This document shows positions 7,159 through 42,713 of a DNA stretch of 64,000 bases, piece by piece. Positions within the stretch are counted from its first letter, which is position 1, and the number at the start of each line of letters is the position of its first letter. The notes beneath the pieces are model-generated. The model had not been told where the DNA came from. It did not search any database and worked only from the letters and a program-made list of their open reading frames with translations. Position numbers and translations under genes: made by a program. The stretch comes from Owenia fusiformis (taxonomy: Eukaryota): the NCBI GenBank assembly GCA_903813345.2, contig CAIIXF020000001.1, positions 25,358,001 through 25,422,000 of the forward strand, in the 5' to 3' direction.

Positions 7159-7511
7159 TCAGAGCCGAATTTCAACGACTAAGTGGTTTGGTGAGATGAA
7201 AATAAAAGCTAATGAAATCAACACTAATCTTTCGTCATCTAAATACTCCCAACCCAGATTTTGGAGCAACACACTTCTTATGAAGCTCATTACGTGCAAA
7301 CCTGAAGAACGGGACCACAAACCTGAGTTCAAAAATATAGTAGTGGGATTATCTTGTCTCAATATATCTGCAAAAGCATCTCGTGCAACATTGTATTCTG
7401 TTTCTGTACATCCCGTCTCGTCAGAACCGTCCGTACAATCTTCAACATTATCACAACGCAGTCCCTCCATGCACGCCCCATTGGAACATTTGATTTGCCC
7501 CGTACTACATT
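7159..7511 (-). CDS. Copy A LDL-receptor class A exon (7323-7511) and terminal hydrophobic-tail exon (7159-7238)
   Basis: [34 protein letters not shown]; 84-nt intron gtttgt...tttag; tail [26 protein letters not shown]. Confidence 0.8.
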
Positions 7512-40500: not shown

Positions 40501-42713
40501 CGCTATCCATAACATCGACTATTGAAGCAATGTAACCTGTGCAATGCTTTTTGCCAGGTATATGCGTCCTCTTTCCAGTGGGAATGTAGCAATAGTTGTA
40601 TTTTTGCTTACCCGATGATGGACAATTGTCATATACATCTGAAATACATGATTCAAAAATTCCAGTATATGTTGTTTAGAGAGTAGATAGGCAATAGCCT
40701 AGCACACGGACGTAGCAAGGCATGAGGGGGGGAGGCGCCAAGGTTTTACAGAAATATATTTATTCAAACGGTTTTTCAACTAAAAGTGTTGAAATGAAAC
40801 CCAAAGGTTGTAATACATCTCCTTTAACCTAAATTTGCCTCGCCAATTTACATTTGCCTCCCCAATTTTTTCTTCCTTGCTACCCACTAGCTCTCTATAA
40901 TACCCTCTATATGTTCCCTAAAAGTCGATTACGTATTTAATACTGCGGTTGCTTAACCAATAAAAAGCTGATACCTGGGCAGAACTTTATGTAGTACTTG
41001 GCACCGTTATACGTGCTGGTCGGCTCTTTTATGAAATCATACATGTAACAAGTTGTTTGATGATTTTGTCTTCCCCATAAAGCTGCCTGGCAAACATCGT
41101 CATTCTCACAAGCCTCAAAACACGACTCGTCATCTGTGACATCAGCAGCAGTAGCATAGTAGGAATTGGCATAGTAATACTTATTATCGTCAGTGACACA
41201 GCCTGAAAAGGGAAAATGAAAAATTGTATCGTGCAATATTAAATAAAAGTATATGTATAGATTTAGAAATGTACCATTATCTATACGAGTTCAAAAGGTT
41301 TGACTCCATAGCTTTTAATCTGAACGTTGGGTATGACATGAGAGTTACTTCTTCCCTCTTGCATTCGCACTATCAATTCTCTTTAGTACCATAGTGACTA
41401 TGCGGGTTGAGTTAGCCTTCTCTTTAGGCCGGAGGGATCTACAGTCACACAATGTAGATATGCAGAATTAAAGTCAATTCCATCCCCATGTTAGGTCAAT
41501 GTCACCCTCGGGAGAACTCAAGTTGATCGAGTCTCGACAAGAAGATTCACGTTGGAGAGCATGAGCAGAAACCATTTTCAAGAGTAAGAATATGGATTCT
41601 TAAACAGGACACTTGGCTTGCTTCTGGAACTTTTTGTTGGCACTATACATTGTATATATTCAACTTGTTTTTTAGAATATTTAGAGAAGAATTTGGGAGT
41701 TTTTTATTTTCACAATTCCCCTTTACGTTTATCGCATGTGAGTCGATGAAATTGTGTGCATACATTCCTGCATTTTATATAAAATGATGAAAGTGGAAGA
41801 TTTACTTACTTTGGGGTCCAACGGGAACTGAAAAGAAAAGAAACCATTGTTTTAAATTTATGAAGTATTCAATTATTCTAGTAATTTGGTGTTTTAAGCC
41901 AGATATAGTTAATCAAAGTTTAATTTCGAAGAGAAAACTAAATCAAATGTTTTAAAAAACACCTACCTGTATTTATGCCACACGATTTCCCGAGATCAGC
42001 TAGATTTTCGGTACATGGATTCGCATAACCATTCTCAAATGCTTTGGGAACTCCGGCTCCAGATGCACAAGATAACCGTATGGCTTCCAGATTGCCAACG
42101 TTGTTAATAGCACATTGGAAGAAGAAGCAGTTGTCCGTCCTATCGGCAAGAATTTCATTTTCCGCCGAGCATTCTACAATGAGATGTGTGTATCATGTAT
42201 GGTTCAAACTTAAAAAGAGTTATTGGTATCAACTTTCATTATACGGAAAAGAGGCGGTCTTAATATTCTTTTGAATCTAGTTAAGATAGCTTCACTTTAG
42301 TAAAGGGTCACTTTTCGGACAGAATTCAAAATTACATAACCAGACTATAGAAATTCGATAATATTTAAAAACCATCAGCTTCACCGGCTGAGAACCAGTA
42401 TACTTAACTCGAAAATTTGGAATAAGATTTATCCGGAACTTTACAACAAATATTGGAACCTTGTAAAACTTTCTTATGTTGCGATGAAATGTGATAGCAA
42501 CGTAAAACAATACTTAAAATTAGTAAGTGGAGATCAGATGAGAAGAATAAGTGAATATTTGCTTTTGTTTTCGTCTGCCATTTCTATATTTTCAGAAATG
42601 CCAGATTTACCTGCGCTATCTGCAGAGGGGATATTCACCAACGCTAGTGCTATCAGACATAAAGAGGCAGTGTGTATATTTGATCCGATCGCTCGACGTA
42701 CATCCCTCTTCAT
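7159..42713 (-). CDS. Copy A: multi-exon mosaic extracellular lectin/EGF protein (SP-ChtBD2-like-PAN-CTL-CBM67-like-EGFx14-FTP-EGF-FTP-TSP1x2-LDLa-hydrophobic tail), disrupted by a transposon in one exon; possibly a pseudogene
   Basis: GT-AG exons chain in frame: 42611-42713, 41967-42173, 41810-41827, 40975-41202, 40441-40638, 38749-38952, 37331-37471, [36577-36675 + 19808-19832], 18774-18913, 18183-18269, 17249-17362, 16229-16339, 15459-15575, 15086-15202, (14412-14584 broken), 13744-13860, 13416-13532, 13209-13325, 12461-12580, 12168-12284, 11884-12003, 11586-11702, 11316-11435, 10999-11190, 10413-10637, 9737-9850, 9411-9602, 8557-8793, 8181-8354, 7860-8036, 7323-7511, 7159-7238. Almost all introns are phase 1. 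Confidence 0.85.
7860..8354 (-). CDS. Copy A two thrombospondin type-1 exons (8181-8354, 7860-8036)
   Basis: [29 protein letters not shown] and [29 protein letters not shown]. Confidence 0.93.
8557..11190 (-). CDS. Copy A: F5/8 type C / F-type lectin-like domain, EGF, second F5/8C-like domain (5 exons)
   Basis: N.A.G..A..SS.......SNLVDG....WVMIDLG....V..V.I and C......C....EGRYV.V....ITLS.V.VYG motifs. Confidence 0.85.
11316..18269 (-). CDS. Copy A array of 14 single-exon EGF/cbEGF repeats (one broken, one shortened)
   Basis: 111-120 nt phase-1 exons with D[IV]DEC...C..G.C.N..G...C.C..GY.G..C consensus. Confidence 0.92.
12665..13135 (+). mobile_element. LINE 3' end inserted in copy A intron
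   Basis: IRIETGRY...[18 protein letters not shown]; (TAAA)n tail; absent at homologous copy B site cttgt|tatgaagc. Confidence 0.85.
14412..14584 (-). pseudogene. Broken EGF exon in copy A
   Basis: Versus intact paralog 60582-60698: 2-nt deletion after the acceptor, ~58-nt insertion containing (ATGT)n, and a +1 A insertion. Confidence 0.8.
18774..18913 (-). CDS. Copy A exon: last part of jelly-roll domain
   Basis: Phase 2-1 exon (S)[49 protein letters not shown]...YCR motif; its phase matches the reconstructed split exon. Confidence 0.8.
18997..19603. mobile_element. MITE in intron
   Basis: tagtccatggtatga ... tcataccatggacta inverted termini. Confidence 0.6.
19808..19832 (-). CDS. Copy A: 3' part of transposon-split exon
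   Basis: GGCACCTTACTGATTTTGATGACAG|gtaaat completes (N)WHLTDFDDS once the element and one TSD copy are removed. Confidence 0.85.
20967..22660. repeat. CTACCG(C/T)AAAA minisatellite arrays (20980-21270, 21970-22660), ~20/41-bp unit
   Basis: Dozens of aaatctaccgcaaaaactaccgcattttt units; the first array is bounded by catacctgccaac ... ggcaggtctg. Confidence 0.85.
23384..23475 (+). mobile_element. tRNA-derived SINE head or pseudo-tRNA
   Basis: A-box TGGCGTAACGG and B-box GGTTCGAATCC, with no proper cloverleaf. Confidence 0.5.
24102..24802. mobile_element. MITE family member (related pieces at ~16477-17010, ~38400-38670, ~61910-62095)
   Basis: TIR TATCGATATG(G/A)TGAAC and shared internal sequence among copies. 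Confidence 0.65.
26966..27706. mobile_element. TA-flanked MITE
   Basis: TA|TTACCGAACATG ... CATGTTCGGTAA|TA. Confidence 0.7.
27788..28955 (+). mobile_element. 5'-truncated L1/Tx1-like LINE (ORF2 C-terminus with zinc knuckle, polyA, TSD)
   Basis: ORF 27909-28664 with CVLC...EHGFLKC; polyA ~28937-28955; TSD CTTCAATGGTGT at 27776-27787 and 28956-28967. Confidence 0.9.
30342..30881. mobile_element. 540-bp foldback MITE with CAC...GTG ends and 5-bp TSD
   Basis: ~250-bp near-perfect inverted arms, ~40-bp spacer, ATGCT at 30337-30341 and 30882-30886. Confidence 0.92.
32180..32384. mobile_element. ~200-bp TA-flanked MITE (second copy ~47404-47606)
   Basis: TA|CTGTATAAGTGGTA ... TACCACTTATACAG|TA. 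Confidence 0.85.
32826..34128. mobile_element. TIR element with AACGAAGC subterminal repeats (PIF/Harbinger-like)
   Basis: CCTGTTACAC ... GTGTAACAGG ends; repeated GCTTCGTT/AACGAAGC. Confidence 0.6.
35113..35552. mobile_element. MITE
   Basis: aataacccagatgcgagtag inverted as ctactcgcatttgggtaatt. Confidence 0.55.
36577..36675 (-). CDS. Copy A: 5' part of transposon-split exon (jelly-roll domain)
   Basis: ttccag acceptor then [33 protein letters not shown], running directly into the TIR at 36576. Confidence 0.85.
37331..37471 (-). CDS. Copy A exon: first part of CBM67/fungal POL-lectin-like jelly-roll domain
   Basis: [50 protein letters not shown]...Y.DG....G..W motif; 141 nt. Confidence 0.7.
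38749..40638 (-). CDS. Copy A two exons (40441-40638, 38749-38952): C-type lectin domain
   Basis: [13 protein letters not shown]...[12 protein letters not shown]...WWMG...[10 protein letters not shown]...QCGIF...KWEDVDCE...MCK. Confidence 0.9.
39296..40281. mobile_element. Long-TIR element with internal ~41-bp tandem repeats
   Basis: >120-bp inverted arms (ctatctgttgcaagac... / ...gtcttgcaatagatag); internal gcctggcatgaccgtgacaatgtaatatagtattgcaa units. Confidence 0.8.
40975..41202 (-). CDS. Copy A exon: PAN/apple-like domain
   Basis: [42 protein letters not shown]...TCYMY...KYYIKFCP; C-x3-C-x5-C PAN pattern; 228 nt. Confidence 0.75.
41810..41827 (-). CDS. Copy A 18-nt microexon (VPVGPQ linker)
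   Basis: cttttcttttcag|TTCCCGTTGGACCCCAAA|gtaagt; keeps phase 1-1. Confidence 0.7.
41967..42173 (-). CDS. Copy A exon: six-cysteine chitin-binding type-2 (peritrophin-A/CBM14)-like domain
   Basis: [69 protein letters not shown]; 207 nt, phase 1-1; D..CFFFQC...C..G pattern. Confidence 0.65.
42611..42713 (-). CDS. Copy A first coding exon, signal peptide
   Basis: [34 protein letters not shown] followed by G|gtaaat donor: basic N-region, hydrophobic core, small residues at the likely cleavage site. Confidence 0.75.

What the first reader, a model, noticed from the sequence alone, without database searches (positions are those of the whole stretch)
7159..42713. Unfamiliar mosaic protein combining four kinds of glycan-binding fold
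Seen: signal peptide, chitin-binding-like, PAN, C-type lectin, CBM67-like jelly roll, an EGF stalk, two F5/8C/F-lectin-like domains, two TSP1, LDLa and a hydrophobic tail in one spliced frame. Several of these exons are missing from the ORF track. I do not recognise this architecture as a named gene. Inference: a surface-anchored multi-glycan receptor or a chitin-matrix protein, with an N-terminal lectin head held out on a Ca-binding EGF rod.
Basis: partly seen in the sequence, partly recalled or inferred. Interest (0 to 1): 0.8.

Follow-up and report, generated by a model that had tools for sequence, protein, structure and literature searches.

The report
Worm surface lectin mosaic, transposon-broken copy
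A marine worm has two neighbouring copies of a gene for a large, probably lipid-anchored cell-surface protein built from shuffled modules, one of which resembles a calcium-dependent sugar-binding module known from fungi and bacteria, and the flagged copy is interrupted by a jumping gene.

Summary
The mosaic gene is real. It lies on the minus strand, has about 32 exons and would give about 1,500 aa. It is one of two tandem paralogues; a database protein of the second copy (CAH1773910.1, Owenia fusiformis) joins head to stalk.

Corrections:
- The flagged copy is not one clean frame. A 16,739-bp Transib-like element splits its jelly-roll exon.
- The quoted hydrophobic tail is intron read-through. 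The true last exon (6300-6221) looks like a GPI signal.
- The folds are supported (CBM14-like, C-type lectin, CBM67/POL-like, F5/8; PAN weakly), but only the CBM67-like domain keeps its known sugar-site residues. The F5/8 pair lacks the fucose motif.

Most interesting: the CBM67-like domain is a three-exon module, seen in at least 7 more copies in this genome, with identical intron phases in the one read. A 2024 review table lists no animals for that family.

Best reading: a GPI-anchored glycan-recognition or adhesion protein, this allele damaged. Two RNA runs gave next to no exon coverage. The scan had already noted both insertions here, and CBM67-like modules only in bacteria.

The parts
42611..42713 (-). 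Copy A exon 1: ATG and signal peptide (34 codons, phase-1 donor)
   Evidence: sequence read; homologous N-terminus in P0005; signal peptide judged by eye
41967..42173 (-). CBM14-like six-cysteine module
   Evidence: AlphaFold model pLDDT 88.9; top 6 VIA rows are Der p 23, EHEP, Blo t 12, two Avr4 and CHIT1 CBM14, Z 3.1-4.8; Pfam CBM_14 in 1 of 12 family members
41810..41827 (-). 18-nt micro-exon (linker)
   Evidence: sequence; its peptide is present in P0005
40975..41202 (-). PAN/apple-like module
   Evidence: Pfam PAN_1 E 0.005, below cut-off
38749..40638 (-). C-type lectin domain, two exons (40638-40441, 38952-38749)
   Evidence: joined in P0001; lithostathine match E 8.5e-7 for P0005
38205..38318 (-). 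EGF module in the head
   Evidence: Pfam EGF E 3e-9
37331..37471 (-). CBM67/POL-like domain, exon 1 (holds the Asp-Asp pair)
36577..36675 (-). CBM67-like exon 2, part before the insertion (holds the conserved Pro; includes one copy of the target-site duplication)
   Evidence: 99 + 25 nt equals the 124-nt intact exon of copy B (counted by eye)
19838..36576 (.). 16,739-bp non-coding TIR transposon, CAC ends, 5-bp target-site duplication, with nested repeats; Transib-like
19808..19832 (-). CBM67-like exon 2, part after the insertion (phase-2 donor)
19808..19928 (-). Possible alternative exon: a phase-1 acceptor inside the transposon end with an open frame into the exon remnant (use not shown)
   Evidence: inference
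18774..18913 (-). CBM67-like exon 3, fast-evolving; a Trp invariant in the 4 aligned relatives is Gly here
18183..18269 (-). EGF exon shortened by a deletion (5 of 6 Cys); frame kept only through a new donor
   Evidence: one search compared, by eye
11316..17362 (-). Stalk of 12 intact EGF/Ca-EGF exons
   Evidence: Pfam on 12 of 12 frames; boundaries by eye
14412..14583 (-). Dead EGF exon (interrupted by about 65 nt of other sequence)
   Evidence: by eye; only its 3' part aligns to sister exons
10413..11190 (-). F5/8-type domain 1 (two exons), acidic, no fucose motif
   Evidence: Pfam F5_F8_type_C E 7e-7
9737..9850 (-). Ca-EGF between the F5/8 domains
8557..9602 (-). F5/8-type domain 2 (two exons)
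   Evidence: Pfam E 2e-6 on the first exon
7860..8354 (-). Two TSP1 exons
   Evidence: Pfam TSP_1 E 9e-19, 2 stretches
7323..7511 (-). LDLa exon with a short linker; phase-1 donor at 7322
   Evidence: Pfam Ldl_recept_a E 8e-7; donor conserved in copy B
6221..6300 (-). True last coding exon: polar spacer, then 18 mostly hydrophobic residues to the stop; GPI-signal-like
   Evidence: conserved in copy B with acceptor, frame and stop; the GPI reading is inference
46920..64000 (-). Copy B (tandem paralogue), stalk and tail; its head lies beyond the window, to about G000:C1:25,440,850

Best explanation
The locus holds two tandem copies of an annelid gene built by exon shuffling. The intact product is a secreted-pathway protein of about 1,500-1,700 aa that is probably tied to the outer membrane leaflet by a GPI anchor. 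From the membrane outwards: LDLa, two TSP1, two acidic F5/8 domains that have lost the sugar site and act as spacers or protein-binding pads, a Ca-stiffened EGF rod, and a head. In the head, the CBM67/POL-like domain is the likeliest Ca-dependent sugar binder, possibly helped by the C-type domain; CBM14-like and PAN-like modules add weaker or protein contacts. With no cytoplasmic part it should capture or adhere to glycans (microbes, mucus or particles at an epithelial surface), not signal by itself. The flagged copy A was under purifying selection for most of its history, but this allele is damaged: a young transposon sits inside the lectin exon. SHOWN: exon order, paralogy, insertion, selection, sequence relation to POL. 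INFERRED: GPI anchor, ligand, tissue, loss of function.
For: Exon-by-exon homology of the two copies. Database protein P0005 joins signal peptide, CBM14-like, PAN, C-type, EGF, CBM67-like, Sushi and EGFs of copy B, and P0001 joins PAN to the first jelly-roll exon of copy A. POL match E 9e-9 with Asp-Asp and Pro aligned; these residues are named as the Ca/sugar site in PMC11512411 (passages). dN/dS 0.16 over 872 codons. Terminal exon conserved, read-through stopped in copy B. Insertion with target-site duplication, from a family whose ends are 98-99% alike.
Against: No transcript support from my own test: in RNA runs X20 and X22 (about 6 and 12 in 100 of each run read) exon-rich bins had depth 0 to about 1, and none of the 15 joints listed (914 not shown) was an exon junction of this gene. 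Both database proteins are partial, so the stalk-to-tail join rests on phase, order and conservation only. How those database models were made is not known to me. The AlphaFold model of the CBM67-like domain was poor (pLDDT 54). No GPI predictor was available. No binding was tested.
Confidence: 0.6

Rival explanations
1. Copy A is still expressed from this allele as a shorter variant. It either skips the jelly-roll exons (the three together, or exons 2 and 3, can drop out in frame) or uses an acceptor inside the transposon end that reads in frame into the exon remnant.
For: Phase arithmetic by eye. Open frame 19926-19807. Faster evolution confined to the last third of the domain (dN/dS 0.61 over 53 codons vs 0.16, p 1e-8). 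No stop in 20 of 20 exon pieces compared.
Against: No reads show it; 19.8 kb was outside the stretch laid. The first two thirds of the domain are still constrained (dN/dS 0.15 over 76 codons), and the element looks much younger than the duplication (ends 98-99% alike vs dS about 0.22).
Confidence: 0.2
2. It is an adhesion or protein-binding surface molecule whose lectin folds are mostly vestigial.
For: F5/8 domains lack the His/Arg motif. The C-type domain has QPS and WED, not the canonical EPN/QPD and WND (motifs recalled), and its best solved match is lithostathine. TSP1, LDLa, Sushi and EGF are protein-interaction modules (established knowledge).
Against: The CBM67-like Ca/sugar residues are kept in both copies and under constraint.
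Confidence: 0.2
3. It is a secreted or shed component of a chitin or mucus matrix (chaetae, gut lining, tube).
For: CBM14-like fold. A relative of this module sits on a Ser/Thr-rich, peritrophin-like frame elsewhere in the genome. GPI proteins can be shed (established knowledge).
Against: Only one CBM14-like module in about 1,500 aa; Z scores are under 5; its best fold matches include Der p 23 and EHEP, which I recall as not binding chitin; a conserved anchor signal is present.
Confidence: 0.15
4. The 42.7-36.6 kb and 19.8-7.1 kb exon sets are two separate genes.
For: A 17-kb gap; P0001 stops inside the first jelly-roll exon.
Against: The gap has inverted ends and a target-site duplication and falls inside an exon that is whole in copy B; P0005 runs through that exon; I saw no start or signal-peptide exon in the 3' set.
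Confidence: 0.03

Closest known systems
Pleurotus ostreatus lectin POL (PDB 6T0Q, 6T1D, 6KBJ) and SaCBM67 of Streptomyces rhamnosidase (3W5M)
   Same: Sequence-level relative of the jelly-roll domain (E 9e-9 to POL, 0.04 to 3W5M as a single sequence); Asp-Asp and Pro site residues align.
   Different: Here it is a single, three-exon module with five Cys (copy B) inside an animal mosaic; POL is a soluble two-domain fungal lectin and SaCBM67 is part of an enzyme. Specificity is untested.
Invertebrate mosaic lectin/EGF surface proteins, e.g. Drosophila Uninflatable and Furrowed, SVEP1/polydom (architectures recalled, not from a call)
   Same: Phase-1 exon shuffling of C-type lectin, F5/8 or F-type, Sushi, EGF and LDLa modules into a long extracellular protein.
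   Different: As I recall, none has CBM14-like plus PAN plus CBM67-like modules or this order; Uninflatable and Furrowed are transmembrane. Not an orthologue of any on present evidence.
EDIL3/DEL-1 and lactadherin (EGF plus two F5/8 domains)
   Same: EGF repeats followed by two discoidin-type domains; EDIL3 EGFs match at E 6e-12, as any EGF would.
   Different: Those are small secreted proteins whose F5/8 domains bind lipid (recalled); here the domains are strongly acidic, separated by an EGF and followed by TSP1, LDLa and an anchor.
F-type lectins (AAA, MsaFBP32, oyster bindin)
   Same: F5/8 fold, VDG calcium motif, intron in the middle of the domain as in oyster bindin (PMC5712786, passages).
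   Different: The HX24RXDX4(R/K) fucose motif is absent in all four domains of the two copies.
PAN / CBM67-like / CBM14-like genes on G000:C11 (same genome)
   Same: The same three modules; identical intron positions and phases in the CBM67-like module of the one copy read.
   Different: Other module order (PAN, CBM67-like, CBM14-like); no EGF rod seen in the stretches fetched; too diverged for the C1 domain to find them.
Non-autonomous Transib transposons
   Same: CAC ends, 5-bp target-site duplication, nonamer-like block at positions 31-39.
   Different: AT-rich target sites; no transposase found; 7-9 kb in the closest subfamily, 16.7 kb here.

Membership tests
CBM67/POL-like lectin domain | Sequence relation to solved members | tested here: met
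   phmmer of the copy B domain: POL E 9e-9; a C10 copy's first exon also hits POL, E 3e-7
CBM67/POL-like lectin domain | Asp-Asp calcium pair and downstream Pro | tested here: met
   aligned; residues named in PMC11512411 passages; present in both copies
CBM67/POL-like lectin domain | Jelly-roll fold in a model | tested here: inconclusive
   model from a 4-row alignment had pLDDT 54; no fold search run on it
CBM67/POL-like lectin domain | Domain intact in the flagged copy | tested here: not met
   exon 2 split by the insertion; invariant Trp replaced
CBM67/POL-like lectin domain | Ca-dependent sugar binding | not testable with these tools
   needs protein assays
CBM14 (chitin-binding type 2) | Six-cysteine module with the CBM14 fold | tested here: met
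   model pLDDT 88.9; Foldseek ranks 1-6 and VIA ranks 1-6 are this fold, though no match reaches E 0.001 or Z 5
CBM14 (chitin-binding type 2) | Pfam PF01607 match | tested here: inconclusive
   0 for this module; 1 of 12 family members at E 6e-4; Atlas 0.84 is a lead only
CBM14 (chitin-binding type 2) | Chitin binding | not testable with these tools
   needs pull-down
C-type lectin | Domain-level similarity | tested here: met
   lithostathine E 8.5e-7 over residues 209-341 of P0005; no Pfam Lectin_C row or 62
C-type lectin | Canonical sugar site (EPN or QPD with WND; recalled) | tested here: not met
   QPS and WED in both copies; may still bind Ca or sugar
PAN/apple | Pfam PAN_1 over cut-off | tested here: inconclusive
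   17.1 vs 21.4 bits
F-type lectin | Fucose motif HX24RXDX4(R/K) | tested here: not met
   motif from PMC5712786; each copy A domain has two Arg, neither in the motif, and no His at the site
F-type lectin | Calcium motif h2DGx | tested here: met
   LVDGD in all four domains; Leu is not among the residues the review lists
GPI-anchored protein | Small omega residues, polar spacer, C-terminal hydrophobic run, no cytoplasmic tail (rule recalled) | tested here: inconclusive
   met by eye in both copies; no predictor or experiment
Transib superfamily (insertion) | 5-bp target-site duplication | tested here: met
   11 of 13 elements examined; 2 of 13 have 6 bp
Transib superfamily (insertion) | CAC heptamer, 23-nt spacer, A-rich nonamer | tested here: met
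   CAC in 13 of 13; in the window's element 6 of 9 nonamer letters match, including positions 5 and 6 (by eye)
Transib superfamily (insertion) | GC-rich target sites | tested here: not met
   12 of 13 duplications are AT-rich against the preference in PMC1131882
Transib superfamily (insertion) | Transposase | tested here: inconclusive
   no long ORF in the elements screened; RAG1 family search rang neither here nor in the controls

The most novel reading that the evidence does not exclude
Annelids carry a so far undescribed animal branch of the CBM67/POL Ca-dependent lectins. It has become a mobile three-exon module that is shuffled repeatedly with PAN and CBM14-like modules, and this gene displays it on a GPI-anchored EGF rod as a receptor for microbial or algal sugars such as rhamnose or galactosides. 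The domain may have entered animals from microbes long ago.
Probability: 0.35. Interest if true: 0.65.

Novelty: new variant of a known kind. Interest (0 to 1): 0.45.

Why it matters
Odd module combinations are common in marine invertebrates, so the architecture alone is modest news. Two things add value. First, a CBM67/POL-like lectin module with its calcium and sugar residues intact sits in an animal genome in at least nine copies; Pfam does not flag it and a recent review table lists no animals for the family, so it gives a concrete, small, expressible target for testing how invertebrates read microbial sugars. Second, both tandem copies carry a young transposon in a coding exon in this assembly, which may explain why the database models are partial; it warns against reading one assembly as the species' gene set.

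Tried and rejected
- Word-based homologue searches found nothing at threshold: 4 candidates, 44, 202. Weak evidence, since even P0005 was not returned.
- The HMMER search with a 45-aa exon gave only the own protein and 3 metagenome proteins. It is too short to show absence in other animals; it also missed this genome's own C10/C11 copies.
- Atlas on jelly-roll exon 2 gave unnamed short clusters at low recognition: not used.
- My recalled idea that the jelly roll is an Aplysia egg-lectin (ADEL/AKL) domain was dropped: PMC5484111 (passages) places those in DUF3011.
- No listed holder run is on record as RNA. X4, guessed as RNA, has contigs that run through introns, so it was treated as DNA.
- The read lay was swamped by repeats and showed nothing at the insertion boundary.
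- A PDB profile search for the CBM14-like family gave no real match. The second F5/8 exon matched no solved structure; the first gave only weak CBM32 rows.
- One search had 3 of 20 exon pieces in the wrong frame; they were corrected and only those totals are used. One search was also out of frame (corrected). The first C-type exon and most stalk EGFs were left out of dN/dS (an indel; unclear one-to-one pairing).
- Literature: no paper held 5 of 6 architecture terms; searches listed none that by title or abstract start describes this protein or an animal CBM67 domain. PMC8878817 and PMC10140915 gave no useful passage. The original CBM67 paper is not held. No supplements were read; genome-paper domain tables could hold such a record.
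- A PAN search of the genome returned no answer.
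Full report
WHAT IS THERE. The window is AT-rich animal DNA from G000:C1:25358001-25422000. The database names proteins of this locus as Owenia fusiformis, an annelid. Reading boundaries by eye gives 32 coding exons plus one dead EGF exon. Every junction checked is GT-AG and phase 1, except a phase-2 intron in the jelly-roll domain.

TWO COPIES. A DNA search with the head found a second copy about 31 kb upstream (80% identity). Self-alignment of 122 kb shows exon-by-exon homology: copy A is the finding; copy B runs from about window position 82.85 kb to 46.9 kb. 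Searches with the jelly-roll and F5/8 exons found only these two copies. Over 16 exon pieces outside the jelly roll (872 codons), dS is 0.22 and dN/dS 0.16, so both copies were long constrained. Contigs of run X2 match introns of both copies closely (table 8), which argues against the pair being an assembly artefact.

THE 17-KB GAP IS A TRANSPOSON IN AN EXON. Copy B has one 124-nt exon. In copy A the same exon is in two pieces, 99 and 25 nt once the duplicated target site is counted once, either side of a 16,739-bp element with inverted ends. Its ends match 40 scored places in the genome; the best 17 other left ends are 98-99% alike. Of 13 elements examined, all begin with CAC, 11 have a 5-bp and 2 a 6-bp duplication; none screened has a long ORF. 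This fits a non-autonomous Transib (PMC1131882, passages), apart from AT-rich targets. An acceptor inside the element's end could give an in-frame substitute exon; nothing shows it is used.

OTHER DAMAGE IN COPY A. It lacks the Sushi exon of copy B (Pfam E 2e-6; no counterpart). One EGF exon is shortened to 5 Cys and another is interrupted. The last third of the jelly roll has dN/dS 0.61 against 0.15 for its first two thirds (p 1e-8 vs other exons), with an invariant Trp lost. That divergence looks older than the young element, so it may be relaxed constraint or a change of specificity; I cannot separate these. Copy B also carries an 8.4-kb element with a 4-bp duplication just before its exon-1 donor. 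I found both insertions before the look-up; the scan had noted both.

THE REAL C-TERMINUS. After LDLa there is a phase-1 donor at 7322. Both copies keep an exon at 6300-6221 (B about 47000-46920) with acceptor, frame and stop, 25 codons with one amino-acid change. With the three small residues at the junction it reads as omega site, polar spacer and 18 mostly hydrophobic residues to the end: a GPI signal by the usual rule (recalled; no predictor run).

INDEPENDENT JOINS. P0001 (CAH1773908.1, 276 aa, partial) is copy A from PAN to the first jelly-roll exon. P0005 (CAH1773910.1, 796 aa, partial) is copy B from the signal peptide through CBM14-like, micro-exon, PAN, C-type, EGF, jelly roll and Sushi into the EGF stalk. 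P0005 includes the 18-nt micro-exon and crosses B's insertion, which suggests a transcript from an empty allele (inference). My own RNA test was negative and weak: two RNA runs, read to about 6 and 12 in 100, had depth 0 to about 1 over exon-rich bins, and repeats filled the joint table. Tissue and stage are unknown.

ARE THE FOLDS LECTINS? CBM14-like: a family of 14 matches in the genome; a good model whose nearest folds are all CBM14-type, at low scores; chitin binding is open. PAN: below the Pfam cut-off. C-type: matches lithostathine, with non-canonical site motifs. F5/8: Pfam positive, strongly acidic (28 Asp/Glu vs 4 Lys/Arg in domain 1), calcium motif present, fucose motif of PMC5712786 (passages) absent. 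Jelly roll: matches fungal lectin POL at E 9e-9 and rhamnosidases weakly; the Asp-Asp pair and Pro that PMC11512411 (passages) names as the calcium and sugar site are kept. One good candidate sugar site, one possible, the rest unsupported.

A SHUFFLED ANIMAL CBM67-LIKE MODULE. A metagenome relative used as query found 8 further matches on C10 and C11. In 9 stretches fetched there are at least 7 more domain copies, 4 with all three exons detected, three places ending in a CBM14-like exon and two with a PAN exon in front. In the one copy read base by base, the introns fall at the same positions with the same 1-1-2-1 phases. The module is therefore old and mobile in this lineage, which speaks against a recent transfer. 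The table of PMC11186620 (passages) lists CBM67-like tandem-repeat lectins in archaea, bacteria, oomycetes and fungi, not animals; it covers tandem-repeat lectins only. My searches could not test other animals properly, and I recall similar unnamed domains in bivalve proteins, so presence elsewhere in animals is likely.

MECHANISM AND VERDICT. Most likely a GPI-anchored capture or adhesion protein that holds a Ca-dependent sugar-binding head away from the cell on a Ca-EGF rod, with this allele of copy A broken (0.6). Rivals: a rescued shorter product (0.2), a mainly protein-binding role (0.2), a shed matrix protein (0.15), two genes (0.03); the first three are not exclusive. No named family with this architecture turned up (and the sequence searches), but such mosaics are a known kind. 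Novelty: new variant of a known kind. Interest 0.45, carried mainly by the animal CBM67-like module.

Noticed in passing
window 61855-64062 and the next 2.2 kb (L011): A 2,206-bp tandem duplication in copy B (3 mismatches) repeats three EGF exons; P0005 has them once. Very recent duplication or assembly artefact.
   Followed up: partly
G000:C1, window-equivalent 74349-82767 (L012, L013): 8.4-kb element with long inverted ends and a 4-bp duplication, between copy B's signal-peptide exon and its donor.
   Followed up: partly
L071-L075 (G000:C11 20.42-20.45 and 20.93-20.95 Mb): Small genes combining PAN, one to three CBM67-like and CBM14-like modules; a possible secreted lectin family.
   Followed up: partly
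L077-L078 (G000:C10 20.37-20.39 Mb) and L079 (C10 0.695 Mb): CBM67-like exons, in L077 among repeated cysteine-rich exons of unknown type.
   Followed up: no
L041:1408-3123: 571-codon frame: CBM14-like module followed by a Ser/Thr/Glu-rich mucin-like tract.
   Followed up: no
window 3270-4366 and 27788-28944: Two 87%-alike 3' fragments of a LINE-type element in opposite orientation, one nested in the big insertion; element type judged by eye.
   Followed up: no
window 8557-11190 and 50.2-53.8 kb: The first exons of the two F5/8 domains are about 90% alike while the second exons differ much more, a pattern that suggests exon duplication or gene conversion.
   Followed up: no
window-equivalent 88076-91760 (L013), + strand: Two long frames (579 and 657 aa) that look like the endonuclease and reverse transcriptase of a LINE (by eye).
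   Followed up: no
window-equivalent 98.3-102 kb (L014), - strand: Open frame of over 1,200 codons of Thr/Ala/Asp/Val repeats, mucin-like.
   Followed up: no
L015-L016, + strand (about 12 to 4 kb before the window): Exons of a neighbouring gene with an N-terminal hydrophobic segment and Lys/Glu-rich stretches; not identified.
   Followed up: no
window 1599-1682, 1968-2683, 21962-22650, 39398-39881: Simple and minisatellite arrays (periods 4, 135, 31, 39).
   Followed up: no
G000 C1, C10, C11 (L035-L037): A shorter (2.8 kb) subfamily of the same CAC-ended element, about 91% alike at the ends.
   Followed up: partly
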